64,000 bases of DNA from a virus. The DNA lies in IMG/VR virus record IMGVR_UViG_3300008111_000001. One strand, given 5' to 3'. A program made the translations under genes and the position numbers. The notes beneath the pieces are model-generated. The model saw only the letters and a list, made by a program, of their open reading frames with translations, was not told where the DNA came from and did not search any database. Shown one piece after another: positions 4,243 to 63,245 of the stretch; the first letter of the stretch is position 1; each line of letters opens with the position of its first letter.

Positions 4243-5001
4243 ATGAGTTTAGCAAAGTTCCGCAAGGTTCATAGCAAAACAGGCGCTGGCCGGTTTGTTG
4301 TTTCTGAGGGCGTAGCCCCCAGTGCATACTTGCTTCCCCATCCTGGTTTGCCAACATGGTATCTAGACAGCGAAGATGATCGTTTCGAGATCGTCATTCC
4401 TAAGGGTACTATCCTTTCAGTGGTAGCCGACAGCAATGGCGATGCCCGGGTTGTACCAGCTAATGGTACAAGCTCAAACAAGAGCTGGGGCGACGTAATG
4501 CCTAGCTGGGACCCACAAGATGGCGCTACACCAACATCAACAAGCGGCTCAACCGATACCGTAACAGTATCAGCTCGCTCAATTCCAGTTGGTTGCGCAC
4601 AATATGATCTCTACAGACCATTTGATAAGGGCACATCGCAAGGTGCTGGCTTTATTACTCACGGCTATGTAGAGTATCCCATGGTTGCTGGCATTAATGA
4701 CGATGTAACAGTTGGGTCACTAATTCGTTCCGATTTCATGGGACGTCCAGTGGCTGCAGCTGCTGCCGATCTTCAGGACTATGCCTACCTCCAGGTCGGT
4801 AAGGTTATTGAGGTTGAGAAGTTTGCTACAAACTTCGATGACGGCCTCCTTAGCTACATGCAGCTCCCATCAGATCCAGGTGCACTAAAGACAGTATACG
4901 AACTTACTCGTAGCGGAAGCTACAGCGGTAAGCTCGGTATTCGTGCAAACCTAGATGTATACAATGTCATTGGTGCTTTCCGCGTCAATTTGACACTCTA
5001 A
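4243..5001 (+). CDS. Capsid decoration/cement protein
   Basis: Between scaffold and MCP with strong AGGAG RBS; beta-rich; IVIPKGTILSV and V..G..I.SDFMG.PV patterns typical of decoration proteins. Confidence 0.65.
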   Translation: MSLAKFRKVHSKTGAGRFVVSEGVAPSAYLLPHPGLPTWYLDSEDDRFEIVIPKGTILSVVADSNGDARVVPANGTSSNKSWGDVMPSWDPQDGATPTSTSGSTDTVTVSARSIPVGCAQYDLYRPFDKGTSQGAGFITHGYVEYPMVAGINDDVTVGSLIRSDFMGRPVAAAAADLQDYAYLQVGKVIEVEKFATNFDDGLLSYMQLPSDPGALKTVYELTRSGSYSGKLGIRANLDVYNVIGAFRVNLTL

Positions 5002-5034
5002 TCAAAACAATAACACAGGAGGAATATTCCTAAG

Positions 5035-6093
5035 ATGAGTAAGACAATCCAAGAGCTCCTCTCTGGTCTCCCAGCTTGGGAGGCTGCACTGACTGAGGAC
5101 GGGTATATCGATGCAGACAATAGAGTAACCATTAAGGAGGCTTTTGCTTCACCAGACGCAGCAGCCCTTTTCCCCAAGGTTCTCTCTCGTACGCTAAGAG
5201 AAGCAGCTGAGCCACAGCTTCTTGTGACCCCCCTGCTTTCCACTGTTCGTCTCGGTAAGGGGCGTTCTTTGGAGTTCCCAGCAGTCAATGCTATCCAAGC
5301 GGCTGAGATTCCAGAAGGCCAAGAATATCCAGAGCAAGCACTCGCCTTTGCAAAGCAGGTAGAGGGCAAAGTTTCAAAGAAGGGTGTAAAGCTAGCTTTC
5401 ACTGAGGAAGTAATCGCTGACTCACTTTGGGACATTGTCGGTCTACATGTTCGTGCAGCCGGACGTGCCATGGCTCGTTTAAAAGAGCAGATTGCTCTTA
5501 GCCGCTTCAAGGATGCAGCAACTATCGTTTTTGACAACGATAGCGGTTCATATGATGACACAACAGGTCTTGACATTAATGGCGCTGCCAATCAGACAAT
5601 TACCTGGGATGACATCGTGGACATGGCTGCTGTTCTCATGGCTGAAAATCATGTACCAACAGACTTTATTCTTCACCCCCTAATGTGGTCGGTATTCCTC
5701 AAGGATTCCATCTTCCATGCCGGTGGTGCAGCTTCTGGTGTTGGCACAAGTTGGGGATATCGTCCTCAGTCAGCTGAGGGTGCCCTTAATTCAACAGCTC
5801 CAATGGGACTAAATGTCCTTGTTTCACCATTCGTAAGCTTTACCGCTAAGAGTGGTGCAACTGCAGCTAAGTCAGACTTGTTCTTGATCGACCGTAACGA
5901 GGTAGGTACACTTCTCGTTAAGGACGACATGAGCACCGATCAGTTCGATGATCCAAGTCGCGACCTTCGTTCACTAAAGATGAAGGAGCGGTATGACATC
6001 GTAATGCTAGGTGACGGCGAAGGTATTACCGTAGCTAAGAACGTCAGACTCAGCCGTAACTATGAAGTACAGGTTACTAACGATATAGCCTGA
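5035..6093 (+). CDS. Major capsid protein, HK97 fold
   Basis: AGGAGG RBS; AAEIPEGQEYP E-loop motif, KKGVKLAFTEEVIADS, spine helix AAGRAMARLKEQIAL, TDFILHP and MKERYD near the C-terminus; followed by a terminator. Confidence 0.93.
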   Translation: MSKTIQELLSGLPAWEAALTEDGYIDADNRVTIKEAFASPDAAALFPKVLSRTLREAAEPQLLVTPLLSTVRLGKGRSLEFPAVNAIQAAEIPEGQEYPEQALAFAKQVEGKVSKKGVKLAFTEEVIADSLWDIVGLHVRAAGRAMARLKEQIALSRFKDAATIVFDNDSGSYDDTTGLDINGAANQTITWDDIVDMAAVLMAENHVPTDFILHPLMWSVFLKDSIFHAGGAASGVGTSWGYRPQSAEGALNSTAPMGLNVLVSPFVSFTAKSGATAAKSDLFLIDRNEVGTLLVKDDMSTDQFDDPSRDLRSLKMKERYDIVMLGDGEGITVAKNVRLSRNYEVQVTNDIA

Positions 6094-6099
6094 TAGAAA

Positions 6100-6135
6100 A
6101 CCTTAGGGTCGTTATAGTTACAAATTACCCTAAAG
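6100..6135 (+). other. Hairpin in MCP 3' UTR containing a 22-nt antisense match to 23S rRNA helix 69-70
   Basis: 6100-6121 reverse complement GTAACTATAACGACCCTAAGGT versus 23S GTAACTATAACGGTCCTAAGGT (20/22); TTAGGGT 6103-6109 pairs with ACCCTAA 6127-6133. Confidence 0.5.
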
Positions 6136-6138
6136 CTT

Positions 6139-6176
6139 GGGGGTGGTGGAGAAATCCGCCACCCCCTCTGCTTTTA
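6139..6176 (+). terminator. Rho-independent terminator after major capsid gene
   Basis: 12-bp stem GGGGGTGGTGGA / TCCGCCACCCCC (one G-U), GAAA tetraloop, followed by TCTGCTTTT. Confidence 0.85.
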
Positions 6177-6190
6177 TTGGATTTCTTTTA

Positions 6191-6205
6191 TTACTATTAA
6201 AATAG
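6191..6205 (+). promoter_or_regulatory. Putative phage late promoter TTACTATTAAAATAG
   Basis: Directly after the terminator; identical to 2568-2582; upstream of the next gene. Confidence 0.55.
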
Positions 6206-6228
6206 GTTTTATTGATGGAGTGTGTTTA

Positions 6229-7002
6229 GTGAGCTTGTATTTAATAGACAACGCTACCGTAACTGTTAATACAGTTAATATTAAGTTTGGTAGAACAATA
6301 AAAATAGCTTCTTTAGTAAATGCTAACTTTACACTGTTTACCGACGCTGCTACACCGGTTCAAATTAGTTCTGCTTTTAGAACCATAAATACAATAACTG
6401 ATTATAATCAGATTAGTAGAACTTTAACGCTTTATTGGAACGTTGTTTTATCTTCTGGTTCAGATTATATTATTAAGGTAGCTAATTTAGTAGATTCCTC
6501 TGGCTTAACTGTTCCAGAGGAACAGATAAGCTTTACTAGCCAAACTAATTCTGCTACACCGTCTATTCTTCAAGAAACTCAAGGGACTGTTCTTAATGAG
6601 GTTCTAATTGAAGATAAATCAGTTAGGGTAGACATAGAAACCGGATATCAGATTCTGGCAAAAAATCCAGATTTTTATATTATTTCTACAGATCCTTCAA
6701 CGGGTAGCTTTTACTTAAATAATGATGAGAATAATGGACGAGTCACTATAAACTTTAGTTCACGTCCAGCATCAAACTTTTTGACCTCAAAATATTTTAA
6801 AGCTCAGAGAAAAAAAATACAGAAAACACCTTCTAGATGGGAGGCTGTAGACGCACAGGTGTCAATGCACTCATGGAGGGCTGATGTTTATGTGGACTTC
6901 CCATCTGACGACGCTACACCAGTTTATTCTACTGATGATAAAACATACTTTGAGTCTGGCTATAAGTATAGGGTTATTGTTTCTTCCGAAGTTGGTCCGT
7001 GA
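6229..7002 (+). CDS. Ig-like domain virion protein (head/neck accessory)
   Basis: GGAG 6217-6220 favours GTG 6229 over 6220. Two bacterial Ig-like (Big_5-type) sandwiches: IKFGRTI...L...Y.I.V.NL.D.SG and VTINFS; three ATP tripeptides. Confidence 0.6.
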   Translation: MSLYLIDNATVTVNTVNIKFGRTIKIASLVNANFTLFTDAATPVQISSAFRTINTITDYNQISRTLTLYWNVVLSSGSDYIIKVANLVDSSGLTVPEEQISFTSQTNSATPSILQETQGTVLNEVLIEDKSVRVDIETGYQILAKNPDFYIISTDPSTGSFYLNNDENNGRVTINFSSRPASNFLTSKYFKAQRKKIQKTPSRWEAVDAQVSMHSWRADVYVDFPSDDATPVYSTDDKTYFESGYKYRVIVSSEVGP

Positions 7003-7412
7003 TGGCTAATGCACTGTACGCAAAAGCTAAAGAGGCCTTACTTGAGGGTTTATTGGATTTAACTGATAATAATATTAAAGTGGCATTAATAAAAAATACT
7101 TATTCTGTAAATTTAAATACTCATGAGTTTTTGTCAGATATATCAGGATCTGCTATCGCCGGATACTCAAATATTTTAACTGGCAAATCAACCTCTCTTG
7201 GCATCTTTGATGCAGAGAATATAACAATAGAGGATTATGGTAATTCTGGATTTTCTTATTTGGTTATATATAGAGATACCGGTACTGCAGCTACTTCTAG
7301 ATTAATTGCATACATTGATACGGCTACTGGCTTACCAGTTAACGCTACCGCAGATGTTATTTCAATTACGATAAATTGGAGTAATGATACTTATAAAATA
7401 TTTGGACTATAA
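7002..7412 (+). CDS. Conserved minor virion structural protein
   Basis: MANALY.K.KEALL...DLT...IKVAL...FDA...LVIYRDTG.AATS.LIAYIDTATGLP pattern is widespread in phage structural modules; TGATG overlap with the previous gene. Confidence 0.65.
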   Translation: MANALYAKAKEALLEGLLDLTDNNIKVALIKNTYSVNLNTHEFLSDISGSAIAGYSNILTGKSTSLGIFDAENITIEDYGNSGFSYLVIYRDTGTAATSRLIAYIDTATGLPVNATADVISITINWSNDTYKIFGL

Positions 7413-7421
7413 AGGATATTT

Positions 7422-7760
7422 ATGACTACTTCATATCCCGGAACATTAGATAATTTTGTAAACCCAACCGCTACAGATAAGCTAAATTCTGCAACGGTAC
7501 CACATCATCAGCAGCACACGGATTTGAACGACGCTGTTGAGGCAATAGAGACGGTCCTTGGCTTAAGCCCAGCAGGCGCCCATTTGACAGTTAAAGACAG
7601 AATAATCGCAGCAGAATCTGCTATAGCTACTCAATCGGTTTTAAATGGTTTAACTGATGTTACTATATCAACAGCTAATCCTGGTGATGTTTTGCGTTAC
7701 AACGGCTCTGCCTGGGTAAATTATGGTGAAGAAAATCTTGTTGATGGAGGAAACTTTTAA
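7422..7760 (+). CDS. Small fibre-associated protein
   Basis: H...[11 protein letters not shown] coiled segment, LTDVTI...[13 protein letters not shown] fibre repeat, C-terminal DGGNF. Confidence 0.55.
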
Positions 7761-7762
7761 CA

Positions 7763-10243: not shown

Positions 10244-10257
10244 TAGAAGGAATTTAA

Positions 10258-10710
10258 ATGAAATATGATGGTGATATAGCATATAATCAAGAGCATTATC
10301 AATATAATGGGTTATATGTAGTATCACCAGAGGCTTTTGGTTTAAGTCCTACATTTGGTAATTTAAATTTATTAAAAGTAATAGTCTTAAAGCCACCTTC
10401 TATAACAAGTACATTAGTTTTTGTTCCATCTCCCTCAGTAGTAATTCCAACCGGTGTTATAGAAAATTCGGAAACTTCTTCATCAATAGATTTTTCTGCA
10501 TTTGACGGATATGGTTCAATAGAGTTTGACAAAATCAATGCAGAAGCATATGCAATAGCAGGTTCTCAGGGAATCAATTCAGATAGCTCTGGTTATATAG
10601 CTATATCGGTAGATAAAAATGAATCCTATGCATTTGCTACTGCAGATACTATAGTTTTTGATAATAACTCTGCTGGCACAATAGATGTTACTATTATATC
10701 TAACGTATAA
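10258..10710 (+). CDS. Hypothetical virion-associated protein
   Basis: AAGGA RBS; beta-rich S/T/D composition; sits in the structural operon. Confidence 0.5.
   Translation: MKYDGDIAYNQEHYQYNGLYVVSPEAFGLSPTFGNLNLLKVIVLKPPSITSTLVFVPSPSVVIPTGVIENSETSSSIDFSAFDGYGSIEFDKINAEAYAIAGSQGINSDSSGYIAISVDKNESYAFATADTIVFDNNSAGTIDVTIISNV
10688..10695 (+). promoter_or_regulatory. Putative late-promoter motif TTACTATT
   Basis: About 32 nt upstream of ATG 10727 (AAGGGG RBS); could also simply reflect V-T-I codons. Confidence 0.3.
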
Positions 10711-10726
10711 ATAAATAAGGGGTTTT

Positions 10727-11994: not shown

Positions 11995-13590
11995 ATGATA
12001 GTTTTATCAAAAGGACAAACAGCAGAATTTAAATTTGTTTTTACTGATTATGATGGATCAATTTACGATCCCGGCAATCTATCTACTCCGGTAGATGTAG
12101 TAGTTTATGTTCTCAGAGGAGACACTGGTTCTGGGCCGGTTATTGATGGTCCATTTTCTTTATTATTAGATAACGCTAATGAAAATAATAATTCAATAAT
12201 TAGATCAGGTGTTGGCGAATACACTTTCACCTATAAAGTCCCTCAAAATCTATATGAATATGTTTATACGATAATAGCTAGAACAAGTAGCAATGTTCAA
12301 AACATAAACGCAACAGCAACTTTTCAGGTAAAAAATTCTACAAATGAAGTTTCATCAGTAACGATAACTTCACCAAAGTCTTCTGTCATAAACTATAAGC
12401 CAACTTATCAACAATTGGATAGAAGAAATACCAGTACAATACTATTACTGGGGCACGCAGATGGCATGCAATTGAATTATCCAATCCGAATTAACTCTAT
12501 TCAACACGCTGTTGATTTAATGGGGGCCAACACTAGTAGTCCCCTTTTAAGAGGGGTGCTGGATGCCTACTCATGTGGCGCTAGGGATATTATGATTTGC
12601 GCTGTTGCTCCAATGTCAGAGTATGTAGAAAGCTATGCTCAAAGAAATTTGTCAACAACAGTATTTTCTATCAACGACGCCACACCGGGCACCCAAAGTA
12701 CTTTTTATCAAAGATACTATGATCGATTGGCGCAAACGTATGAGGATATAATCGATTTGGATTTTGTTGATATTGTGGTACCTTTGGAGACTAGTATCAT
12801 GAATACTGGTGGGGTTGATTTTACTACTCAATTAGCAAATTATTGTTCGTCGTTTCACAATTCTACAGGTTTTGTTCAAATGGGAATTATTGGTTCAAGA
12901 TCAGACGGAATGAAGTCTTCAGATATAGATATATTGGAAGCTAATTCTTTATTTACTAATAAATTTACAACCTACTTAGATGGCCAAATAGCCTCAGACA
13001 AGGGTAGGTATGTGATACCTGTTTATGGAGAACTGGTATTCCAGCATCCGCAACTTAAGATAAGTTATACCTCAACTGTCGCTGCAGCATACGCCGGAAT
13101 GGTCGCCGCCAATCAACAGGCAAAAGCTTTAATTAGAACGAGAATACCCGGTGCCTTATCTATATTTGGCTCAGATTTAACCTATTCAGAATATGAAAGA
13201 CTAGAAGTCTTAGGTATTAATACGGTCTATAGAGGAAGAAAGACTAGAAGAGCTGTTCCCTTTGAAACCTATGTTACCAATGAGTATACTATGGCTAATC
13301 AGGACTCGGTTTTTAGTAAGCTATTTCAAATGAGACTGGTTACGGCAGTTGTAAGTGAAATAAAGGGAATAGCAGCATCTGGGCATGATTTACTCGGATT
13401 TGACAATATTATTGATGAGTCCAAAAAATATCTACAGTACTTAAAAGTTAATAAAGCCATATTAGATTATTCTTTTAACGCAAGATTTTCTGATTCGACA
13501 AAAGGTAAGTTAATTTTTGATATAGAATTAATATCATATTTTGCTATTAAGAAAATTAATTTTTCTTTAGCAGCTGGTCCAGGAGCTTAA
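11995..13590 (+). CDS. Tail sheath-like protein (paralogue 1) with N-terminal Ig-like domain
   Basis: Ig-like N-terminus (GVGEYTFTYKVP); sheath domain signatures (ILLLGHAD...SPLLRGVLDAY..GA.DI.I, LEVLGINTV, MRLV..V..EI, C-terminal strands). Confidence 0.7.
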   Translation: MIVLSKGQTAEFKFVFTDYDGSIYDPGNLSTPVDVVVYVLRGDTGSGPVIDGPFSLLLDNANENNNSIIRSGVGEYTFTYKVPQNLYEYVYTIIARTSSNVQNINATATFQVKNSTNEVSSVTITSPKSSVINYKPTYQQLDRRNTSTILLLGHADGMQLNYPIRINSIQHAVDLMGANTSSPLLRGVLDAYSCGARDIMICAVAPMSEYVESYAQRNLSTTVFSINDATPGTQSTFYQRYYDRLAQTYEDIIDLDFVDIVVPLETSIMNTGGVDFTTQLANYCSSFHNSTGFVQMGIIGSRSDGMKSSDIDILEANSLFTNKFTTYLDGQIASDKGRYVIPVYGELVFQHPQLKISYTSTVAAAYAGMVAANQQAKALIRTRIPGALSIFGSDLTYSEYERLEVLGINTVYRGRKTRRAVPFETYVTNEYTMANQDSVFSKLFQMRLVTAVVSEIKGIAASGHDLLGFDNIIDESKKYLQYLKVNKAILDYSFNARFSDSTKGKLIFDIELISYFAIKKINFSLAAGPGA

Positions 13591-13591
13591 C

Positions 13592-14455
13592 ATGGCATAT
13601 ATTAATAGAGATTTTCCCAGTTTTTCCGAAAACTTAAGATACGCATATCCGCAATTACAAGCTCCTGGGTATAGGAGATTGGATCAAGATGGTGTTGAAG
13701 AAGTTTATTCTGGTAACTTAAGCTATCTAGAGTTTATTGGTTTAGTTAAAAAAATGTGGGAAGAAAGTTATCCAGCAATACCAATCCTTCCTTTAAGTAT
13801 AAATAGGGAAACTTCCGTAACCTATAAGGACAATGGTGGAACAGATGTTACTTCTGGGGATCTTTCTTCTGCGCCATCTTCGACATATGTTGGGCTTGAT
13901 GAATTTCCCGCAATTATAGGTTATCACTTGGAATTAAGAAAGGCTCATACTACTGAGCCAAAGCCAAGAATGAGACAAAATGTATTGTCTAACACTGTGA
14001 CTATTTATGGTCAGCGTTTTCAGAATATTGTTGGCTTTACTGTTATGTCTAAAGTTGGCACTTTTCAGGGGTCGAATGGCTCAACTACTAGAGACGACCT
14101 TGATGCAGCGGTTTTGTGCGATCAGGTTATTGAAGCTTTCGAAGATTTTATGTTGGAATACACCTCTATTTTTAAGGCTGCAGGAGCATCTGAGCTAGTT
14201 TATTCTAGGCGTTTGTCTGATTCAGAAATCAATCGTGAAGGCAAAGATGTACACAAGAGAACTGTAACCTACATGCTAACTACAGAAAAGACCTTCGCAA
14301 TGTCCAATAGAAGAATTGAGAAGATTGTAGTTGATGCAAGAACTTGGATGGCCTACGAAAAGCAGTTATTAAGAGATCAATTGGCGACCCCTAATTATGA
14401 GGGTACAACGGGTAATATTATTGATTTATTCCAAACAGCAACTCCAAACACGTGA
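13592..14455 (+). CDS. Tail terminator/completion (neck) protein
   Basis: KPRMRQ...GQRFQNIV.F...IE.FEDFMLEYT..FK..G..E..Y.RR..D pattern; lies immediately before the sheath gene. Confidence 0.55.
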   Translation: MAYINRDFPSFSENLRYAYPQLQAPGYRRLDQDGVEEVYSGNLSYLEFIGLVKKMWEESYPAIPILPLSINRETSVTYKDNGGTDVTSGDLSSAPSSTYVGLDEFPAIIGYHLELRKAHTTEPKPRMRQNVLSNTVTIYGQRFQNIVGFTVMSKVGTFQGSNGSTTRDDLDAAVLCDQVIEAFEDFMLEYTSIFKAAGASELVYSRRLSDSEINREGKDVHKRTVTYMLTTEKTFAMSNRRIEKIVVDARTWMAYEKQLLRDQLATPNYEGTTGNIIDLFQTATPNT

Positions 14456-14567: not shown

Positions 14568-15830
14568 ATGGCTATACCTGGAGTAAAAACATTAATTAGA
14601 GATCGCTTCTACAGTGTATCACGTCAGGATACACCTGTTGGTCCTAGAATAGTTGCAATAGCACGTCGTAGCACAGCAAACAATACTGGCTCAGTAGCAG
14701 ATCTTGACGTCGTTAGAGCCACAAATGAAGCAGACGTTATCACCGCCTTTGGCGATGGTTCAGACGCTCACCGCGCTTATTTGGAGCTTGTTTTGGCTGG
14801 AGCTGGAAGAATTTACATTGTTCCACTTCCTTCCGACACAAAATGGGACACTGACCCCGTGAGCCCTACAAGCACTGGAACTGTAACAAGTTCTTCTTAT
14901 GGTGGATCTGTTTTCGACGCCGCATTCATTGCTGCCGAAGCTGCTATCCCTGACATTATTATTCCTTGGGGTAGAGGAGCTCATCCAAATGACTGGCAAG
15001 ACCCAGCCACACCTAGCGATGACGCTTCGTATGGTTTCGTTGCAGATAATACTACTACGGTTTCAAGCAACTGGGCTTATCAAGTAGCCGCAAAGGTTAA
15101 GGATATCTCAGAGAATATTAACCCCTGTATTGCAGTTATGGGCATCAAGCCATATTATAGCACCACAGAGGTTATGACACCCGGTCAGGTCTCTACACAC
15201 TTGGCCTTGTCAGGTCTTCCAGACAGAAATGCTAGCGCTCTCCTCAAAGAGGTGGGCCCGTACGTTGTCGTGGTTGCTGCAGAAGTCAAGCCCGTAAACT
15301 ATCAGTCTGGCACAACAGAGTTTGGTTATGCTAACGGTGCTGCTCACGTAGCTGGCGCCTTAAGCCTTCTTCCTTCATACAGCTCATTGGTAAATAAGGC
15401 TCTCTACAATGTAGAGGCTCTTCGCTATGCTCCTTCTAGAACTCAGCAAGCAGCTCTCGGCGCCAAGGGTGTTAATACCGTTGTTGTAAACTTTAATAAA
15501 ATTCCAGTATTCGGAGAAGGCCTAACATTTGGATGGGCAACATCAGACTATACTCGTCTCTCAACAAAGAGAATCATAGACGACGCAACATCAGTTGTGA
15601 GACAAGCCTGCCAGAGATTTGTTGGTGAACCATCAAACATTCAGACAAGAAATGCGATGGAAACAGCTATCACTTCTGGCTTGAGAGGTATGCAAATCGT
15701 AGGAGCCTTGCTTGGTAGCGACTTTACAGTCTCATACATACCAAACGAAAACAAGGCGATTGTAGACCTCATTTTAACACCTGCCTTCGAGCTCAAGGAG
15801 ATCGAAGTCAGAGTAGCCATTAATCTATAA
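14568..15830 (+). CDS. Major tail sheath protein
   Basis: GGAGG RBS; N-terminal V..AFG.GS.A.RAY..L...GA; C-terminal sheath domain (KGVNTVV...DYTRLSTKRIID...FVGEP...R..ME.AI...L...TPAFELKEI.V). Confidence 0.9.
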   Translation: MAIPGVKTLIRDRFYSVSRQDTPVGPRIVAIARRSTANNTGSVADLDVVRATNEADVITAFGDGSDAHRAYLELVLAGAGRIYIVPLPSDTKWDTDPVSPTSTGTVTSSSYGGSVFDAAFIAAEAAIPDIIIPWGRGAHPNDWQDPATPSDDASYGFVADNTTTVSSNWAYQVAAKVKDISENINPCIAVMGIKPYYSTTEVMTPGQVSTHLALSGLPDRNASALLKEVGPYVVVVAAEVKPVNYQSGTTEFGYANGAAHVAGALSLLPSYSSLVNKALYNVEALRYAPSRTQQAALGAKGVNTVVVNFNKIPVFGEGLTFGWATSDYTRLSTKRIIDDATSVVRQACQRFVGEPSNIQTRNAMETAITSGLRGMQIVGALLGSDFTVSYIPNENKAIVDLILTPAFELKEIEVRVAINL

Positions 15831-46713: not shown

Positions 46714-47883
46714 ATGCCAATTTATGGAATAAAAAATAAAGCTGATATACTAGTCAATGTCTTGAATGGCTTGCAGAAAAATGCAGGCGTATCAGCCGTC
46801 TATCCTGGGTCTATAGCTAGAGCATTTGCAGAAGCTTTTACCAGTGAAGTATCAGATCTTTATGAGGCTTTAAGATTTAACCTAACCCAAGGTGACCTCA
46901 TGACAGCATCAGGCAGGAATCTTGATTTGATAGGCGACCTATATGGAATAACCAGAAGAAACATTAGCGATTATTCTAGTCAAGATCGCGAATCCTTCAA
47001 TATTCAATTCCTTATAGACAAGCCACATAGCTCGGACGTAACAATACCATCCGGAACATTGGTTTACAATGATGTGTCAAATTTTATTACAAAGCAATAT
47101 ACATATAAACTAGCTGGAGATGTAATTATTGGCAAAGGATCAACTAGAGCTTATGGAAGAGTTGATCCAAACTTTACAGATAATGCGTATGTTGCTCCTG
47201 TCGGCACACTAACTAAGCATAACGCTTTTGCTCCAGCTGGGGTAATAGTGTTTTGCTCAAATCCCAAAGAGGTTTACTCTAACACCAGTGCAGAGTCAGA
47301 TACTAATTTCCGAAGAAGAATCATAGCTTCGATAAAAGCAAAAGCTCCGGGCACAGCTGAATCTATCAGATTTGCTGCGTTAGCAGTTAGAGGTGTTAGG
47401 GACGTTAGAATTAGAGAAGGCACATACGGGGTAGGGTCATGCGATGTTATCGTCGTGCCAGAAACTGCTACCGACATGTCAAATCTGCCTCAAAGAGTTA
47501 TGATCGCAGTTAGTGCAGCTAAGCCAATTGGCGTAAGATTTAATGTTAGAATAGCAGAACGAGTTAGTATGAACGTAGAAGCTACTATTACGCTACCGAT
47601 GGGCTTGAGTGAAAATCTTGCTAGTGGCATAAGAAATCAGGCCTCACTGTTTGTGAAAAGATACCTAAATTCATTAACAGTTGGAGATACTGTTTCTATT
47701 TCGGAAATTGAAAGACAAATTAAATTATCATCAGATTATATTCGATCATGTTACATAAGTTCCATGTTAGCAGATGGTTCCAGTCTTCCACTTGTAGATT
47801 TTTCACTAGATACAGTTAAAAGATACCCCGTAGCAGGCGCAATAAACATTAGTTCTGTTATAATGGGTGGAACAAATTATTAA
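46714..47883 (+). CDS. Baseplate J-like wedge protein (T4 gp6 type)
   Basis: GSIARAFAEA, ASGRNLDLIG..YGITR, VTIPSGTLV, ESDTNFRRRI, GT.ESIRFAAL.V.GVRDV, GSCDVIVVP, AKPIGV motifs. Confidence 0.88.
   Translation: MPIYGIKNKADILVNVLNGLQKNAGVSAVYPGSIARAFAEAFTSEVSDLYEALRFNLTQGDLMTASGRNLDLIGDLYGITRRNISDYSSQDRESFNIQFLIDKPHSSDVTIPSGTLVYNDVSNFITKQYTYKLAGDVIIGKGSTRAYGRVDPNFTDNAYVAPVGTLTKHNAFAPAGVIVFCSNPKEVYSNTSAESDTNFRRRIIASIKAKAPGTAESIRFAALAVRGVRDVRIREGTYGVGSCDVIVVPETATDMSNLPQRVMIAVSAAKPIGVRFNVRIAERVSMNVEATITLPMGLSENLASGIRNQASLFVKRYLNSLTVGDTVSISEIERQIKLSSDYIRSCYISSMLADGSSLPLVDFSLDTVKRYPVAGAINISSVIMGGTNY
47856..47864 (+). promoter_or_regulatory. Possible extended -10 promoter TGTTATAAT
   Basis: TGnTATAAT in the 3' end of the J-like gene, about 45 nt before the next start. 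Confidence 0.3.
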
Positions 47884-47912
47884 TTTGTAAATTAATATTT
47901 TAAGGATAATTG

Positions 47913-50900
47913 ATGAAACAGTATTTGTTACTTTTAAAAAGCGGGGACTTTAATAAGTCTGGCAACATATGGACTAGCAATGCTGTAAATCTATATAAGA
48001 ACAATTCTTTCACCAACTATTCTTATGTTAGATCAAGGTATGGCCTTAACGCCATAGGGGACAATACCTATGTTGGCTTAGAATATACTTCTCCGTCATA
48101 TACTGCGGAATTATCAACTCCACTATCCAATAATGCGCTGTATGTTACAGATGTTGGCGAGATTGTTTATGAACAGGCTACGCCTTCTATTCTGAGATTT
48201 GTTGATACTACGTCAAAAATAGACGTATTAGCCTATAAGCACGCCTTTACAAATCTTCCTGGAACCGAGGTTCCAACCTTCAACTTGCAGATGTATGAGT
48301 CTGATTCAGAAAATGGTCCATGGTTAAAATCCATTCTTTCCTTTGATTCAAATGTGATCTTCATAAGAGATTGTAAACCATGGATAAAGATAGAATTAGA
48401 GATATTCACTGAAACTTTGAATACTAGTGATTTAGGTCTATTGTTTTATTTGGAAATTGGCATACATGATCCAGTCCCACCAGTAGCATCTGAGCATGCA
48501 AGAAATATATTAAAGAGATTCCCAACATGGACGGACATGTTTGCAGATTCAGAAAATCCTGCAACCCCATCTTTGTTTGTTCCTAGTTCTACCGCTGGAA
48601 AATTCTTAACAGCGCTTGTCCAGGAGACTCTGGATAATTTTGATAATGAATTAAATCTTTACGACATTAATCATTACATATCGAGCGCAGATGAAAACAT
48701 GCTTGCATGGGCATACGTATCTTATGATGTACCTGTAAACATTCTAAAGGTCTTGGGTGACGATATTCCGCTTATACAAGTAGATAGTTTAGCTTCATTC
48801 CATAGATCTCAGCCAACCGATTATGTATATTATTATAGTCAGGCAAATAAGCAGATAATTTGTATGCGAGAATTTTCTGTATTGAAAATTAATGATATTC
48901 AATATGATCAGCATCCGCTACATGTTCCAAATAACTTTGATGAATTTGGCGCAAGAGTCGGACTCCCTAGACTGCTACTAGAATCAAACGCAAGATACAA
49001 GAAAAGAATCTTAGACGTATCTTTAAACTATCCTGCAGCTCACATAGATGGTTTCAAGAGAACAGTAAGAAGAGAGCTAGATATTTGGAAAGCTTATGGT
49101 CTTGAACCAGATTCTAATTATCTTGGCGCAACTCCAGATGTTATCGAAATCTCTGATATGGAAAAGAGTACCCCATGGTTTACTCCTTCCGGTAAGCCAC
49201 TAAAGCCATTTATTGACCTTATCGAAAGTATTAACGAAAAGTATCCATCAAACATTGGATATGTTCGATGGGAAGAGGGCTACTGGGATTACGGCGGAAT
49301 GGACGGAGAAGGTATTTCTTCAATTCCCGCAATATACGACGTAGAAACAAGCGCGTCTCCGCAGTATTATCAATCAGGTGTTGGCGACTACGCAGACGCT
49401 AAGCTGATATTGGAGGCAGAAGAAAAAGCCACAACGTCTTTTTCTGGTTATGCAAGTATTTCCGGCGTCTATGCAGATGGTATCGAAGAAGTCTATGCTC
49501 CAATTAAAGTCGACTATTCATGGTATGTTTCTTATCTCAAGAGAGTCCCAGACTATGCAGCAGGGCGCAGAAAGTCCGGCGTAACACAGGATGTTGGCGT
49601 TGGTCTAACATATGAATTATCAATGGCTACACACAACTTCTACGCCACGCCATCTACATTTTACGTTAATTTAAATTATTTAGATAGAGATGACTTTTAT
49701 GTAGGAAACAGATTACCAGAAAATCATCCAGCAAGCCCAGAGTATAATCTAATTAGAATATTTAATGACGATGGATATACTCTTTCTGATCTTCAATTCA
49801 AAGATAAGATATACAATAACATTTACTACAATGCCTCTAGTTCGCCTAGCGTAAATACAATTAATTTTGATGACGTAAGTTCTGTAAAAATAGTTTTCTC
49901 TAATGGTGGATGGAACCATGTTACTCAAACATATGACAAGTCTTTGGCTACAGCAAACTACAGAGTAGCTTTTAGTAAGTCTACTCCAAATACAATTTAC
50001 TATACCGATCCTTCCTACATGCAATCAGCCCAGTTGGCATCTCCAAGCCAATTCTCCTATAACGATGCAAACATAAGGATAGGTTCAACTGTATATCAGA
50101 CAAAAGTGCAAAAATTTGATACACAAACAATTACTTCATCATTCTTTTTGAACGAAAATAATAATCTTACTCAATCTGGTACACAGAATTATTCTATGTA
50201 CATAGATGATCTTGTGGATAGAATAATACTTCCCCCTCAGTCAACGCCTCAGTATATTTACATAAATAATATAAAGCCTCTTGGTTTAACATATTTTAAC
50301 GGTGATACTTTAATAAGTGACATTCATGGTGGAGCGGTTATTAATCCAGACGATAATGAAAGATATCTCGTTCCTTCATCCCCAAACATAACATATAAGA
50401 CATATAACTCTTCAGGGGTTGAAATTGCTAGCCCAGATTATTTTGATTCAGCCACTATAAATTACTACGCAACGCCATCATATTTAAGTTTTGAATCAGC
50501 AAGTAATAATTTTTATCCTATTTACTTTACAAAGTACGCCTCGTTTACTTCTCAGACAACACCCCAAATATTTAGTGGCTACATAGATTCTTTGGATAAT
50601 GTTTATGAAAACTCGGAGGCAGCAAACAATCAGTTCTTTAACTCAGATGATTTTCTTAAGAGAATATACTTATCAAAAGATTCTTTTGGTTTGGACCCAC
50701 AAATAGATTACATTATCAAAGATGCCCAATTAATATCTGATACTCAATATATTGAGCCATATGTAAATGATAAAAACTCCTTGATAATAGAACTAAACAA
50801 TGCATTTCTTAATAACGAAAATGCTAATGTTGACGTAAGAATAGCTAGAGATATTCAGGAAGTAGTGCAAAATAATCCAGCAATTCATACTGGCTGGCTA

Positions 50901-52508
50901 TACTTAAACAAAGATGAATATTATGTATATTCTAATCCTGTTACAGATTCTGCTACAGGAAGATTTTTCTCGCTTCCAATTAGTGGCTATCCAAGATCTG
51001 GTTCGCCTATAATAGTTACAGTTGGGGAAGAGCAGTATAGAAATATACTATTTGAAGATGTCGCAACACCTGGCAACGTTGTTTTTAGTAATACAGAAGA
51101 CATTTACGGTAATGTCAGTAATTTTATTTACTTAGCCTATCAAAACGCTGAAAATATATCTGTTACAGATTCTTACACTGGTGTTGTATTATTTGAAAAT
51201 TTGTCAACCTCAACAAATGAGCTGCACTGCTTTAGCGATGCAACTCCGTCCGTGTATGGCAGAAAATATACTGTTAATTACGATGTAAAAAATGCCTGGT
51301 ACGTTGACAAAAATGTATACAACCAGAATACGGAGAGTTATAGTTCGTCAATCTATTTTAGTTCAACTCCAAATACAGATAAAGTATATTCTATTACTTA
51401 CGAATCATCTTTAAATGACAATACTCATCCAATAGATCTTTCGTTAGTTCCATCATCTAACCCAATAGATGAAGGATTTGTTTATGTTTCAAAAACCGAC
51501 TATCCATTTGCTAGCGCAAAAGCAATTTTGTCTCCAACAAGTATTTCTAATTCACAAGATGATTTGATGTATTTGACAATTATTTCTTACGATCAAAACA
51601 ATAACTTTAAGCCAGGCCAAACATTCCACGTTTATGGGGATATAATTTCTGCCACGCCGGCTTATGTTACCACAAATGATAATGGTATAGCTAAAACAAT
51701 AATTCGATACTCTTATAATGGATCCGAGAATTATGAATCAAGTAATTTGTTTGTGTCAGGAATTGGTTCAGCTACTCCAAATGGTGGAATAAATAGTGAG
51801 ACCCAGGGGTATGTGGCATCAGTTCCGTTTAATGTTAATATTTCAGATCCAGAAATCTTAAGATTAAAAGCAGCCCCATCTTCGCTAATTATTAATGCTG
51901 GATCGGATCAGTCTATATCTCTTGTTGGACAAGTTCTTTGGAAAAATCAGCCTTGGGGCAAGATTTTGCGAGTTTCTTGGAACAAAGCAAGAACGTTAAA
52001 AGACCTATTTGCAGCAACTCCTGATTATACAGCTTATACGTCTTCAGATGGCAAACTGGAAATAGCTAATATTGCAACTGCGCAGGATTCTGCAACACCT
52101 GGATACTGGTTTGCTAGAGTTAATATAGCAGATGAAGCAGGCGCTAAGAATATTTTGCTAACAGATCAGGAAATTAATGCTGGTCAAGACGTTACTATAT
52201 CTGGAGACGTGGTTTACTGGTATGAGTCTTATGACACGATTCAATATGATCAAGAATTGAATCCACCACTACCAAATATATATACTTTAAATAAGCAAGA
52301 AAATTCAGAAATTATAGCAACTCCAAACTTTGTTTATAAGCATAGCGATTCTAATACTATTGTTTATAACAGTGCAACACCAAATTGGACACCCCCCAGA
52401 TGGGTGCCATTGAGAAAGTATGATCAGTATCAAATGGGAATTTTTGGCTCAACACCAAACCATATATCTGATTATGAGTTAATTCACCCAGATCATGAGG
52501 AACAGTGA
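47913..52508 (+). CDS. Large baseplate wedge protein (gpI/gp7-like core plus Ig-like domains) with 13 Ala-Thr-Pro motifs
   Basis: NNFDEFGARVGLPRL..ESNARYKKRILD wedge motif; C-terminal invasin/Ig-like segments (VTTNDNGIAK, YTSSDGK); start TTG 47910 or ATG 47913. Confidence 0.6.
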   Translation: MKQYLLLLKSGDFNKSGNIWTSNAVNLYKNNSFTNYSYVRSRYGLNAIGDNTYVGLEYTSPSYTAELSTPLSNNALYVTDVGEIVYEQATPSILRFVDTTSKIDVLAYKHAFTNLPGTEVPTFNLQMYESDSENGPWLKSILSFDSNVIFIRDCKPWIKIELEIFTETLNTSDLGLLFYLEIGIHDPVPPVASEHARNILKRFPTWTDMFADSENPATPSLFVPSSTAGKFLTALVQETLDNFDNELNLYDINHYISSADENMLAWAYVSYDVPVNILKVLGDDIPLIQVDSLASFHRSQPTDYVYYYSQANKQIICMREFSVLKINDIQYDQHPLHVPNNFDEFGARVGLPRLLLESNARYKKRILDVSLNYPAAHIDGFKRTVRRELDIWKAYGLEPDSNYLGATPDVIEISDMEKSTPWFTPSGKPLKPFIDLIESINEKYPSNIGYVRWEEGYWDYGGMDGEGISSIPAIYDVETSASPQYYQSGVGDYADAKLILEAEEKATTSFSGYASISGVYADGIEEVYAPIKVDYSWYVSYLKRVPDYAAGRRKSGVTQDVGVGLTYELSMATHNFYATPSTFYVNLNYLDRDDFYVGNRLPENHPASPEYNLIRIFNDDGYTLSDLQFKDKIYNNIYYNASSSPSVNTINFDDVSSVKIVFSNGGWNHVTQTYDKSLATANYRVAFSKSTPNTIYYTDPSYMQSAQLASPSQFSYNDANIRIGSTVYQTKVQKFDTQTITSSFFLNENNNLTQSGTQNYSMYIDDLVDRIILPPQSTPQYIYINNIKPLGLTYFNGDTLISDIHGGAVINPDDNERYLVPSSPNITYKTYNSSGVEIASPDYFDSATINYYATPSYLSFESASNNFYPIYFTKYASFTSQTTPQIFSGYIDSLDNVYENSEAANNQFFNSDDFLKRIYLSKDSFGLDPQIDYIIKDAQLISDTQYIEPYVNDKNSLIIELNNAFLNNENANVDVRIARDIQEVVQNNPAIHTGWLYLNKDEYYVYSNPVTDSATGRFFSLPISGYPRSGSPIIVTVGEEQYRNILFEDVATPGNVVFSNTEDIYGNVSNFIYLAYQNAENISVTDSYTGVVLFENLSTSTNELHCFSDATPSVYGRKYTVNYDVKNAWYVDKNVYNQNTESYSSSIYFSSTPNTDKVYSITYESSLNDNTHPIDLSLVPSSNPIDEGFVYVSKTDYPFASAKAILSPTSISNSQDDLMYLTIISYDQNNNFKPGQTFHVYGDIISATPAYVTTNDNGIAKTIIRYSYNGSENYESSNLFVSGIGSATPNGGINSETQGYVASVPFNVNISDPEILRLKAAPSSLIINAGSDQSISLVGQVLWKNQPWGKILRVSWNKARTLKDLFAATPDYTAYTSSDGKLEIANIATAQDSATPGYWFARVNIADEAGAKNILLTDQEINAGQDVTISGDVVYWYESYDTIQYDQELNPPLPNIYTLNKQENSEIIATPNFVYKHSDSNTIVYNSATPNWTPPRWVPLRKYDQYQMGIFGSTPNHISDYELIHPDHEEQ

Positions 52509-55726: not shown

Positions 55727-55738
55727 TAAGGAAATATT

Positions 55739-61078: not shown

Positions 61079-61088
61079 AGAGAATATT

Positions 61089-63245
61089 ATGACGCAATTA
61101 TCAGCAAGCACAATGCCTTATCAGCAGATGGTCCATAAAGTGGGTCAATTAATCACCGCAATAAACTCTGCGTCTTTGATTACCAAAGATGAAATAGCGG
61201 AACAATATGTGAAAATATTGAATGAAATCAAAGAGCAAATAGGTGGACCATTAGCGTCATACTCGCCTTTTATAAAAGGAGAACCACCAAGGTCTGAAAA
61301 GTTTAATAAGTTTTTTTCAGAGTATGCACAAGATGTTTCTATCTTATCAAAGCAAATCGACTACCTAAACGCTAAGACAATAAATATATTTAATTTATTC
61401 TCTAAAGAAATTGAAGGAGAAAAAAGATATTCAGAAAGAATAGCTTCTAAATGCAAAATCCTGCAGATGTATTCACGCAGCCCTTCTGATGACCTAGTTT
61501 ATATTGGTGACTCTTTTGAGAATGATGATTTAATTGATTATACAAAAATCACGAAGGGCTCTAATCCATTAATTAGAAACGGTGCTGCATCGCTTGCGAT
61601 AGAATCATCTAAGAGATGGACGATTAACTCCATAGAAGTTGTGTCTGGAAATGGTTTCATAGGAAACAGTCATCAGGTACTTAAGGCTAATAATGATGAA
61701 AATACTTCTGAATATAAATATGTTTTTGAAAATAATAAAACATTAAATAATTTGAGAAGCATTAACGATAATAATCCTCTTACATATTTTGAATATGAAA
61801 GTCTTAATGTTGACAAGTCAACGGCAAAACCGCCACTAACTACTATAACTCAAGAGAATGAGTTTAAGTTTCTAAAAACAGAAATGAATAGCTCTAATTC
61901 CAATGAATCTAATACAGTAGACTGGTCTTCGCATCCAGAAGAAGATCCTTTAACTTTGAAACTAAGATTAACTTCCAATTCTGGGAGAGTAGCAAACAGT
62001 ATTGATATAACTCCATTTTTTGGTTCATCTAAATATCTAGAAGTTACCGAAGTTATAGTCTTTGCTAAAGATGGGTCATCTGAAAATGTTCTAAAGCAAA
62101 ATATATTTATAGGTTCTTCGTTGATTCCTTTGAATCTTGAATTGGCGCAAAATTATTTCTACAACAAAGCGACAGTTAGATTCCCTGAAAGACAGGTTTC
62201 TAAAATAGAAATATCTTTCAGACAGCCGGCCTATTCAAATGTTGACATAAAACACGTATACTGGAAGCCAAGCTCAACTAATGTTAATAATCCGTTTGTC
62301 AACCTGTCTAGATTTAACCCCGACGCCTTGAGTAGAGACATATATGAGTCAATTAAGTATAATAAATATCAGCTAATACCTACTTTATCTAATCCAACTA
62401 AATACAAAACGAACACGCAAAATGTAGCTGATGTAAATGTTACTCTAAAAAAGAAGCCAACATCATTAACTGCATACTTTATAGCTGCTTCATTTTTAAA
62501 TGAATCAGCTACTCCAACTAGTTCTACGGTTTATTTTCATAGATGGACAATAACCGGAGAAGAGGCTCAATTTGTTTCTGAGATACTTAAAGATGAAGAT
62601 AGTTACATAACAAAAAACTATGACACAGCGTCCGCTGCTCAGGAAGATCTAAATGATCTTTTAGATTTATATTTAGGTGCCACCCCATTTTCGGATCCAG
62701 AGTTAGGGATACTGCAAGATATTTCGATTGTGCAACAGTCATTCGTGCCCGTTCAAAAAGAAATTTCCTACAGAGTTATTCTTGAGCAGGCAGAAGAACT
62801 ATATAACGCTAAAAGATGGGCAATAGGTATTAGAGATGTAGATGTATATCGGGAAACTTATAAAGATGAGATGGAAGTTGTATCTTTCCCATTCAAGTTT
62901 GATTATCCTGTTGAGTCAGTCATGCTTGATGTGCAGGCCTCTATAGATGAAGTTCACTCCGGAAGAACTAATATTCAAACCTATATATCCGCTGATCAGG
63001 GATCTAATTGGATAGAGGTTTCTCCCGTGCAATTAGATTTTACAGGTATCCCTGAGATAGTATTCTTTAACCAATCTGTACTTAATGAATATAGATTGTC
63101 TGGGGCATCATATTTATCTTTCCCAACTATTCCTAAAGAAGTTAAAGATATTATTGTTAAAATAGTTGCGCAGAAAAAAGGCGCATATAATTTTACGCCT
63201 AATATATATTCATATCAATTAATAGCTAAGGTAAAGAGATCATGA
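61089..63245 (+). CDS. Baseplate/structural protein, paralogue B
   Basis: Same layout (DSFENDDLID, PLIRNGAASL, INDNNPLTYFEYE); two ATP tripeptides. Confidence 0.5.
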   Translation: MTQLSASTMPYQQMVHKVGQLITAINSASLITKDEIAEQYVKILNEIKEQIGGPLASYSPFIKGEPPRSEKFNKFFSEYAQDVSILSKQIDYLNAKTINIFNLFSKEIEGEKRYSERIASKCKILQMYSRSPSDDLVYIGDSFENDDLIDYTKITKGSNPLIRNGAASLAIESSKRWTINSIEVVSGNGFIGNSHQVLKANNDENTSEYKYVFENNKTLNNLRSINDNNPLTYFEYESLNVDKSTAKPPLTTITQENEFKFLKTEMNSSNSNESNTVDWSSHPEEDPLTLKLRLTSNSGRVANSIDITPFFGSSKYLEVTEVIVFAKDGSSENVLKQNIFIGSSLIPLNLELAQNYFYNKATVRFPERQVSKIEISFRQPAYSNVDIKHVYWKPSSTNVNNPFVNLSRFNPDALSRDIYESIKYNKYQLIPTLSNPTKYKTNTQNVADVNVTLKKKPTSLTAYFIAASFLNESATPTSSTVYFHRWTITGEEAQFVSEILKDEDSYITKNYDTASAAQEDLNDLLDLYLGATPFSDPELGILQDISIVQQSFVPVQKEISYRVILEQAEELYNAKRWAIGIRDVDVYRETYKDEMEVVSFPFKFDYPVESVMLDVQASIDEVHSGRTNIQTYISADQGSNWIEVSPVQLDFTGIPEIVFFNQSVLNEYRLSGASYLSFPTIPKEVKDIIVKIVAQKKGAYNFTPNIYSYQLIAKVKRS

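What the first reader, a model, noticed from the sequence alone, without database searches (positions are those of the whole stretch)
4243..63245. Ala-Thr-Pro tripeptide strongly enriched in surface virion proteins: candidate glycosylation sequon or docking code
Seen: 23 ATP tripeptides by manual count: decoration 1, Ig protein 3, sheath-like 1, neck 2 (both at the C-terminus), major sheath 1, wedge 47913 13, paralogue B 2. About 0.3 would be expected in the 1532-aa wedge from rough residue frequencies. I found none in the tape measure, RNAP-like and hub giants (about 7600 aa) or in the MCP, portal and tubes. Codons vary (GCT ACG CCT, GCA ACC CCA, GCC ACG CCG and others), so selection is at protein level, not a DNA repeat. 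Flanks are often D/S/Y-ATP-S/N/G/D in loop-like contexts. Inferred: Thr acceptor sites for the phage GT, giving a glycan coat on baseplate, sheath, neck and head; alternatively short docking sites for a fibre or decoration protein.
Basis: partly seen in the sequence, partly recalled or inferred. Interest (0 to 1): 0.85.

Follow-up and report, generated by a model that had tools for sequence, protein, structure and literature searches.

The report
Ala-Thr-Pro tag on phage tail proteins
A large group of uncultured aquatic jumbo phages carries the three-residue motif Ala-Thr-Pro about 25-40 times too often on a few outer tail and head proteins. The motif vanishes as a block in some lineages. In the one such lineage that could be checked, two phage sugar-transferase genes are missing too, so it is probably an attachment signal for a phage-made sugar coat, though no chemistry shows this.

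Summary
The count is exact: 23 in-frame ATP tripeptides against about 4 expected, and 13 against 0.34 in the 1532-aa protein that follows baseplate J. ATP is by far the strongest tripeptide outlier in the window. The excess is specific rather than general. Tape measure, hub, tube and the large fibre-like paralogues have none.

Across 77 cluster representatives the baseplate protein carries 12.4 +/- 3.4 ATP (0.53 expected). In relatives the sheath, sheath-like, neck and 260-aa head-module proteins keep ATP or gain it, including inside lineage-specific insertions. The motifs sit in loops just before beta-strands.

Seven full-length homologues have 0-1 ATP. The six placed on a tree nest inside the ATP-rich clade in at least two or three separate places. 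They often keep the Pro but replace Ala-Thr with varied residues, so the fold does not need the motif.

All 30 ATP-rich records that reach ThyX carry GT2 genes just downstream, a pair in 29. The one ATP-poor lineage visible there lacks both, while its ATP-rich sister has them. One of these GT2s is nearest to the flagellin O-GlcNAc transferase GmaR.

Best reading (about 0.5): an O-glycosylation sequon. Chemistry is untested. Unchecked first-reader notes of this scan report the same ATP excess in two other genomes.

The parts
47910..52508 (+). It has 13 ATP (codons start at 48177, 48561, 49128, 49644, 50469, 51063, 51240, 51651, 51771, 52014, 52092, 52317, 52374) plus 6 STP. The true start is probably the ATG at 47913.
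   Evidence: Searches give the counts. The gene directly follows the Baseplate_J gene. 120 homologues at 31-100% identity all carry 6-17 ATP. Residues 1000-1440 are tandem Ig-like domains resembling invasin and intimin. The motifs lie in loops 1-4 residues before beta-strands.
46714..47883 (+). Baseplate J-like protein. It has no ATP and is listed for context: it fixes the position of the 1532-aa gene in the baseplate module.
   Evidence: Pfam PF04865, E = 7.8e-11. Its homologues in 78 loci carry 2 ATP against 5.2 expected.
14568..15830 (+). Tail sheath, with 1 ATP (codons from 15006, residues 147-149).
   Evidence: PHROG tail sheath families match residues 229-418. The ATP column is kept in 20 of 21 relatives. 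Separate lineage-specific insertions and the N-termini of four relatives carry further ATPs. In total the 20 relatives have 26 against 4.1 expected.
13592..14455 (+). It has two ATPN motifs in its C-terminal tail (codons from 14384 and 14438).
   Evidence: It matches phrog_20284, virion structural protein. Both motifs are present in 21 of 21 relatives. Of 120 homologues, 88 have two ATP, and most of the rest have STP at one of the two sites.
11995..13590 (+).
   Evidence: The 20 relatives carry 33 ATP against 1.9 expected, spread over at least five alignment columns and over insertions.
6220..7002 (+).
   Evidence: 3 against 0.06 expected. All three sites are kept in the four relatives that have the gene in the fetched stretch. 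Proteins of 256-258 aa at the corresponding place in the whole genomes G009, G020 and G002 each carry 3 ATP; their homology to this protein was not tested.
4243..5001 (+).
   Evidence: The site is kept in 4 of 4 relatives. Taken alone this is weak evidence.
61089..63245 (+).
   Evidence: It matches phrog_21108. 2 against 0.11 expected, which is not significant after correcting for the number of proteins. The same count is seen in the close relative G002.

Best explanation
Ala-Thr-Pro is a short recognition motif displayed on outward loops and flexible tails of a defined subset of virion proteins. These are the large peripheral baseplate protein, the sheath and sheath-like proteins, the C-terminal tail of the neck-region protein, a 260-aa head-module protein, and certain fibres in some relatives.

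The motif is not required by the folds. It is kept by selection that depends on a factor some lineages have lost. The most likely factor is a pair of phage GT2 glycosyltransferases, encoded just downstream of ThyX in all ATP-rich relatives. The proposal is that these O-glycosylate the Thr in the cytoplasm before or during assembly and give the tail exterior a glycan coat.

Shown here:
- the enrichment and its restriction to particular proteins;
- its conservation and repeated gain;
- its loss as a block in nested lineages;
- the co-presence and co-absence of the GT2 pair.

Inferred:
- that the GT2 pair acts on protein rather than DNA;
- that Thr is the acceptor;
- that the product is a protective or adhesive coat.
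For: 1. Size and spread of the excess. 77 cluster representatives of the baseplate protein carry 12.4 +/- 3.4 ATP against 0.53 expected. Ala precedes 61% of all TP, and flanking preferences are weak, so the core of the motif is the tripeptide itself.

2. Specificity. In 80 related loci the homologues of this protein hold 904 ATP against 23 expected. All neighbouring baseplate and fibre proteins together hold 25 against about 57. In three whole genomes the excess (29, 45 and 32 against about 12) lies almost entirely in virion proteins.

3. Recurrent gain. In sheath and sheath-like proteins, ATP appears in several separate lineage-specific insertions. In G020 it is embedded in classical fibre repeats.

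4. The fold does not need it.
- Seven full-length homologues have 0-1 ATP.
- The six placed on the tree nest inside the rich clade. Strongly supported branches force at least 3 changes, and the AU test rejects a single origin (p = 0.015).
- At 45-52% identity, rich-rich pairs keep 50-67% of ATP sites. Rich-poor pairs at 35-50% identity keep 0-1 of 10-13. The Pro is kept at a quarter to two thirds of sites, while Ala and Thr are replaced by residues such as E, V, Y, L, H and K.
- Composition does not explain this, and no substitute motif appears in the poor proteins.

5. Link to glycosyltransferases.
- All 30 ATP-rich records that contain ThyX have GT2 genes within about 1-8.5 kb downstream. 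29 have two or three; G001, whose contig ends there, shows one.
- The two GT2s are orthologous across both deep subclades (52-53% identity).
- In the ATP-poor P0189 lineage the flanking genes are conserved (61-64% identity) but both GT2s are absent. Pfam and tblastn find neither.
- Its ATP-rich sister P0149, 49% identical in the baseplate protein, has both.

6. The nearest solved relative of the 230-aa GT2 is the GT domain of Listeria GmaR (E = 6.6e-8). GmaR adds GlcNAc to flagellin (PMC9638930).

7. The motifs lie in loops or low-confidence tails.
Against: - No glycan has been observed, and no member of the clade is cultured.
- The co-absence of the GT2 pair rests on one ATP-poor lineage out of at least three. 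Only 55 kb of that genome was seen, so GTs could lie elsewhere in it.
- The GT2 pair sits among DNA-metabolism genes (ThyX, a C5 methylase, DnaB). In the ATP-poor lineage its place is taken by a dCMP deaminase and a D12 methylase. The pair may therefore belong to a DNA-modification module that was swapped, with the link to ATP a coincidence.
- Whether the sheath, neck and head-module proteins also lost ATP in the poor lineages could not be checked.
- In some columns Thr alternates with Ser, Asn or Asp before Pro, as in an ordinary ST/Asx-Pro turn.
- The GmaR match covers only about 100 residues of a very broad family, and the phage protein has no TPR substrate-binding domain.
Confidence: 0.5

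Rival explanations
1. ATP is a structural idiom. It would be a Thr-Pro (ST-turn / type I beta-turn) cap that starts beta-strands in these beta-rich proteins, inherited and multiplied with the domains, with no recognition function.
For: The motifs sit in loops 1-4 residues before strands, or as the N-cap of a short helix. The residue after Pro is often S, N, D or G. In some columns Thr alternates with S, N or D. The Pro is often retained even where Ala-Thr is lost.
Against: - Seven full-length homologues with 0-1 ATP evidently manage without it. The six placed on a tree nest inside the rich clade, and Thr is replaced by E, V, Y, L, H or K, none of which can make the turn hydrogen bond.
- DP, NP and SP, which form turns as well or better, are not enriched in the same protein.
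- The beta-rich fibre-like paralogues next door have none.
- The preference for Ala at -1 has no obvious structural reason.
- Several motifs lie in low-confidence C-terminal tails.
Confidence: 0.12
2. ATP, often as ATPN followed by an aromatic residue, is a docking site for another phage protein, such as a fibre, whisker, decoration or assembly chaperone. Lineages that lost the partner lost the motif.
For: The motif is shared by proteins that line the outside of the baseplate, sheath, neck and head. It is strictly conserved as a double ATPN in the flexible C-terminal tail of the neck protein and near the C-terminus of the baseplate protein. Its loss as a block fits any trans-acting partner.
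Against: - Twelve to twenty copies per chain with weak flanking preferences fit poorly with a stoichiometric protein-protein interface.
- Three residues carry little binding specificity.
- No candidate partner gene was identified.
- The only gene difference seen between the rich and poor sister lineages in the compared stretch includes the two GT2s.
Confidence: 0.15
3. ATP is a sequon for a modification other than GT2-dependent Thr glycosylation. Candidates are Pro hydroxylation by phage 2OG-Fe(II) oxygenases (with or without later glycosylation), Thr phosphorylation, or modification by a host enzyme.
For: In the close relative G002, two PF13640 (prolyl-hydroxylase-type) oxygenases, a Trp halogenase and a GT2 form an operon next to the fibre genes. 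Such oxygenases are numerous in G012 and G020. Block loss would also follow a switch to a host that lacks the enzyme.
Against: The complete genome G009 (terminal repeats, 100% complete) has no PF13640 gene yet keeps the ATP excess. The G002 operon has no counterpart in G009 and only scattered ones in G020. No kinase was looked for. A host enzyme cannot be tested because the host is unknown.
Confidence: 0.13

Closest known systems
Mycobacteriophage virion glycosylation by phage-encoded glycosyltransferases (Freeman et al. 2023, Cell Host Microbe; known here only through its citation in PMC12619734, because the paper itself is not held)
   Same: Phage-encoded GTs are proposed to modify the phage's own structural proteins in the cytoplasm and so produce a glycan-coated virion.
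   Different: In the mycobacteriophages the glycans sit at the C-termini of the capsid and tail-tube subunits (as summarised in PMC12619734). Here the capsid and tube proteins have no motif. Instead a discrete tripeptide is scattered over loops of the baseplate, sheath, neck and head-module proteins. The hosts and phage lineage are unrelated, and here the chemistry is not shown.
Listeria monocytogenes GmaR, the flagellin O-GlcNAc transferase (PMC9638930)
   Same: It is the nearest solved relative of the conserved 230-aa phage GT2 (E = 6.6e-8). It is a cytoplasmic GT-A enzyme that adds sugar to an exported structural protein built into a large extracellular assembly.
   Different: The phage protein is only about 230 aa. 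It lacks GmaR's TPR, linker and antirepressor domains. The similarity covers about 100 residues. No ATP-type sequon is known to me for GmaR.
ST-turn / Asx-Pro turn (type I beta-turn with Pro at i+1), a general structural motif; known to me from the structural literature and not checked here against a paper
   Same: A hydroxyl or carboxamide residue followed by Pro and then S, N, D or G, at loop-to-strand junctions.
   Different: A generic turn would not prefer Thr over Asp, Asn or Ser, would not require Ala before it, and would not disappear as a block while the fold persists.
Ser/Thr-Gly-Ser excess on outer virion proteins of other aquatic phage clades, reported in this scan's own earlier reports (AI notes, unpublished)
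   Same: It is the same kind of signal. A tripeptide is enriched only on outer tail proteins and co-varies with phage GT genes.
   Different: It involves a different motif, different phage clades and different GT genes. I did not check those reports.

Membership tests
Phage virion O-glycosylation system (mycobacteriophage type) | The phage encodes glycosyltransferases | tested here: met
   A GT2 pair lies downstream of ThyX in 29 ATP-rich relatives; one further relative, whose contig ends there, shows a single GT2. The window's own held record ends inside ThyX and shows no GT. Its close relatives G001 and G002 have them immediately beyond that point.
Phage virion O-glycosylation system (mycobacteriophage type) | Glycan mass is detected on virion proteins | not testable with these tools
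   There is no isolate and there are no proteomic data.
Phage virion O-glycosylation system (mycobacteriophage type) | Sites lie at the C-termini of the capsid and tail-tube subunits | tested here: not met
   The capsid (5035-6093) and tube-region proteins have 0 ATP here and in 20 relatives. Sites are in baseplate, sheath, neck and head-module proteins.
Phage virion O-glycosylation system (mycobacteriophage type) | The motif co-varies with the GT genes across lineages | tested here: inconclusive
   30 of 30 rich records have GT2 genes next to ThyX, against 0 of 1 poor lineages, with a rich sister as contrast. Only one of at least three loss lineages could be examined.
ST/Asx-Pro turn as a pure fold requirement | The motif lies at turns or strand starts | tested here: met
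   DSSP on the two AF2 models.
ST/Asx-Pro turn as a pure fold requirement | The motif is kept wherever the fold is kept, and S, T, D and N are interchangeable | tested here: not met
   Full-length homologues with 0-1 ATP replace Thr with E, V, Y, L, H or K. DP, NP and SP are not enriched.
GmaR-type protein O-GlcNAc transferase (for the 230-aa GT2) | Sequence similarity of the GT domain | tested here: met
   phmmer E = 6.6e-8, query residues 3-100 against chain residues 12-100 of the GmaR entry. The match is weak and partial.
GmaR-type protein O-GlcNAc transferase (for the 230-aa GT2) | A TPR domain for substrate recognition | tested here: not met
   Pfam finds only PF00535 and PF13704 in the 230-aa protein.
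Prolyl-hydroxylase-dependent (Skp1/plant-type) Hyp modification | A P4H-type 2OG oxygenase is present wherever the motif is present | tested here: not met
   The complete genome G009 has no PF13640 hit but keeps the ATP excess.
DNA-level repeat or restriction/modification site | The motif is independent of frame and strand, with fixed bases | tested here: not met
   23 of 26 plus-strand GCNACNCC matches are in the coding frame, and third positions vary.

The most novel reading that the evidence does not exclude
A clade of aquatic jumbo phages has its own two-enzyme O-glycosylation system with a defined three-residue sequon, Ala-Thr-Pro. With it the phage coats chosen outer parts of the virion. 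Lineages that drop the enzymes then purge the sequon from all target proteins. This would be the first short, predictable sequon for phage virion glycosylation, and it could be read directly from metagenomes.
Probability: 0.4. Interest if true: 0.8.

Novelty: new variant of a known kind. Interest (0 to 1): 0.7.

Why it matters
As far as I know, virion glycosylation by phage-encoded enzymes has been shown only for a few mycobacteriophages, and no simple sequon has been defined. If ATP is such a sequon, several things follow.
- Glycosylated virion surfaces could be predicted from sequence alone in hundreds of uncultured phages.
- The natural loss lineages would give ready-made controls.
- A small, testable system would be available for cytoplasmic protein O-glycosylation: two GT2s of about 230-270 aa plus an Ig-like substrate domain.

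If the glycosylation reading is wrong, one result still stands. A tripeptide that is 25-40 times over-represented, protein-specific and lost as a block marks a recognition code on phage tails whose reader is unknown.

Tried and rejected
- **DNA repeat:** rejected. The motif is frame-specific and its codons vary.
- **Composition bias:** rejected. Expectations from each protein's own composition are 0.2-0.9 in rich and poor homologues alike.
- **Internal sequence repeats as the source:** contexts differ and the spacing is irregular.
- **General enrichment on all surface proteins:** rejected.
- **2OG-Fe(II) oxygenases as the required factor:** rejected, because G009 has none.
- **The GT2, oxygenase and halogenase operon next to the fibres in G002:** it has no counterpart in G009 and only scattered ones in G020.
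- **GT-D-like gene next to the GT2 in G002:** conserved in G009 and G020 but not detectable in the P0149 lineage. It had no useful PDB match.
- **A replacement motif in ATP-poor proteins:** none found.
- **Foldseek on the N-terminal 1000-residue model:** no meaningful match. The 263-aa GT2 had no PDB match.
- **Distant homologues in Bacillus and Moorella jumbo phages:** not enriched, so there is no cultured model.
- **Searches for more ATP-poor lineages:** scans of IMG/VR and of metagenome contigs returned only ATP-rich relatives.
- **Contigs of the other poor lineages:** too short, without DNA, or ending before ThyX.
- **Logan records:** these cannot be searched as whole records. The sheath and neck genes of poor lineages were therefore never reached.
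- **Literature:** a search for a Thr-Pro phage sequon found nothing relevant, one search was mis-typed, and the Freeman 2023 paper is not held.

Full report
**What the window is.** The window is the structural-gene arm of a large myovirus-type phage. Identified genes include:
- a major capsid protein (5035-6093) and a tail sheath (14568-15830) by PHROG matches;
- Baseplate_J (46714-47883) by Pfam;
- three giant proteins of 2231, 1689 and 3704 aa, and a run of fibre-like proteins.

The held record of this genome is a 98.6-kb fragment estimated at 47% complete. Relatives in IMG/VR are about 200-kb phages from metagenomes, some with terminal repeats. No cultured phage is close. Only Bacillus and Moorella jumbo phages share about 23-29% identity over one domain of the big baseplate protein.

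The 1532-aa protein has 13 against 0.34, and 20,000 shuffles of it never exceeded 5. ATP is the single extreme tripeptide of the window, with p = 6e-11 against 2e-5 for the next. The DNA pattern GCNACNCC is in the coding frame in 23 of 26 plus-strand cases, and its third codon positions vary.

In the big protein the motif reads [AS]-T-P: 19 against 0.9 expected, covering 19 of its 22 TP. DP, NP and SP are at expectation.

**How specific it is.** Within the held record almost all the signal is in that one protein. In 80 related loci its homologues hold 904 ATP against 23 expected. The neighbouring baseplate and fibre proteins together hold 25 against about 57. "Surface proteins in general" is therefore wrong.

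Counts in relatives are:

| Protein | Relatives | ATP observed | ATP expected |
|---|---|---|---|
| sheath-like | 20 | 33 | 1.9 |
| neck-region | 20 | 34 | 1.5 |
| sheath | 20 | 26 | 4.1 |
| 260-aa head-module | 4 | 12 | 0.2 |
| five tube-region families (each) | 20 | 0 | 0.4-1.7 |

Part of this is plain conservation. The two C-terminal ATPN motifs of the neck protein are present in 21 of 21 relatives, and the sheath column in 20 of 21. Part is new gain. Separate lineage-specific insertions in the sheath and sheath-like proteins each bring their own ATP.

In three whole genomes the totals are 29, 45 and 32 against about 12 expected, and the excess lies almost entirely in virion proteins. In G020 a 925-aa fibre carries 8 ATP, embedded in classical fibre repeats.

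**Spread in the family.**
- All 120 nearest homologues of the baseplate protein (31-100% identity) carry 6-17 ATP.
- About 20 alignment columns are conserved as [AST]-T-P. Another 25 or so carry the motif in only some lineages.
- Among representatives of 50%-identity clusters, 77 long homologues average 12.4 +/- 3.4 ATP against 0.53 expected. Flanking preferences are weak, and Ala precedes 61% of all TP.

**Structural setting.** AF2 models were built with 44-row alignments (pLDDT 78.6 and 76.9). Residues 1000-1440 form tandem Ig-like sandwiches resembling invasin and intimin. Nearly every motif sits in a loop 1-4 residues before a beta-strand. One is the N-cap of a helical turn, and three lie in the low-confidence C-terminal tail. 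This fits exposure, but it equally fits a turn motif. Solvent accessibility could not be computed.

**The key result: loss as a block.** Six full-length cluster representatives have 0-1 ATP: P0175, P0181, P0189, P0193, P0194 and P0195. P0380 is a seventh. Their composition predicts as many ATP as in rich proteins.

On a tree of the conserved 350-residue domain, rooted with short ATP-free homologues, they nest inside the rich clade. Strongly supported branches force at least three changes. An AU test rejects holding them together (p = 0.015).

Pairwise comparison makes the same point. At 45-52% identity, rich-rich pairs keep 50-67% of ATP sites. Rich-poor pairs at 35-50% identity keep 0-1 of 10-13. 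The Pro is kept at between a quarter and two thirds of sites. Ala-Thr becomes AY, AK, VE, LQ, AH and the like. No other tripeptide takes over.

The fold therefore does not need Ala-Thr. Something that differs between lineages maintains the motif.

**Which factor.** Prolyl-hydroxylase-type 2OG oxygenases are not required, because the complete genome G009 has none. The GT2, oxygenase and halogenase operon beside the fibres in G002 has no counterpart in G009 and only scattered ones in G020.

Two other GT2 genes are universal.
- In every one of 30 ATP-rich records that contain ThyX, GT2 genes lie about 1-8.5 kb downstream of it. 29 records have two or three. G001, whose contig ends there, shows one.
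- They are orthologous across both deep subclades, at 52-53% identity.
- The two fragments without any GT2 also lack ThyX.

For one ATP-poor lineage (P0189) the same interval could be read from a Logan contig.
- The flanking genes are conserved with its ATP-rich sister P0149: a 231-aa protein, a 207-aa protein and DnaB, at 61-64% identity.
- Both GT2s are absent by Pfam and by tblastn. A dCMP deaminase and a D12 methylase lie there instead.
- The sister P0149, 49% identical in the baseplate protein, has both GT2s.

The nearest solved relative of the 230-aa GT2 is the GT domain of Listeria GmaR (E = 6.6e-8). GmaR transfers GlcNAc to flagellin (PMC9638930).

**Weighing.** I hold with about 0.8 confidence that ATP is a recognition motif dependent on a trans-acting factor, not a fold requirement. 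That the factor is the GT2 pair acting on Thr I put near 0.5. The reasons for caution are:
- the co-absence rests on one lineage;
- the pair sits in a DNA-metabolism block that was swapped as a whole;
- I could not see the sheath or neck genes of any poor lineage.

A docking motif, another modification and a plain structural turn remain as rivals.

**Relation to what is known.** The closest published case is virion glycosylation in mycobacteriophages, where glycans sit at the C-termini of capsid and tube subunits (as cited in PMC12619734). Here the targets and the motif differ. Unchecked first-reader notes of this scan report the same ATP excess in two other genomes. Follow-up reports describe an analogous Ser/Thr-Gly-Ser excess that co-varies with GT genes in other aquatic phages. 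I used these only as leads.

Noticed in passing
window 47910-47915: The ORF caller starts the 1532-aa gene at a TTG. The database copy of the protein (P0001) is 1531 aa, so the real start is probably the ATG at 47913.
   Followed up: partly
L129:1457-4234 and L129:4943-5320 (G020:101457-104234 and G020:104943-105320): In relative G020 a 925-aa tail fibre has 8 ATP, and a nearby 125-aa protein has 3. The ATPs are embedded in classical fibre repeats (NNSGEGATP..., DV..SATP...L.W.G..W, SATPTFTG), where other phages usually have other residues before the Pro.
   Followed up: partly
L137:8565-16994 (G002:48565-56994): An operon next to the fibre genes of the close relative G002 encodes a GT2, two PF13640 2OG-Fe(II) oxygenases and a Trp halogenase. 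It has no counterpart in the complete genome G009 and only scattered ones in G020. Its substrate is unknown.
   Followed up: partly
L158:12859-19239 compared with L169:10863-15710: Between ThyX and DnaB the ATP-poor lineage carries a dCMP deaminase, a D12 adenine methylase and HNH and Endo VII nucleases. Its sister carries two GT2s, a dUTPase and a Methyltransf_24 gene. G002 has a C5 methylase there. This looks like a hot spot where DNA- or protein-modification cassettes are exchanged.
   Followed up: partly
homologues of window 47910-52508: About a third of the homologues keep the first 980 residues or so but replace the C-terminal third with other modules (PF07603, PF14312, PF02018, PF17164, PF02369). 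This is the pattern expected of an exchangeable receptor-binding end.
   Followed up: no
L014-L092, neighbours of the baseplate gene: Neighbouring virion proteins have fewer ATP than composition predicts (25 against about 57), although TP itself is at expectation. This could be avoidance of the motif in non-target proteins, but the sequences are related to one another and no corrected test was made.
   Followed up: no
G022:C1:9325-10386: The sheath gene of relative G022 shows one in-frame TAG and matches only from residue 75 on. This may be an assembly error, a frameshift or recoding.
   Followed up: no
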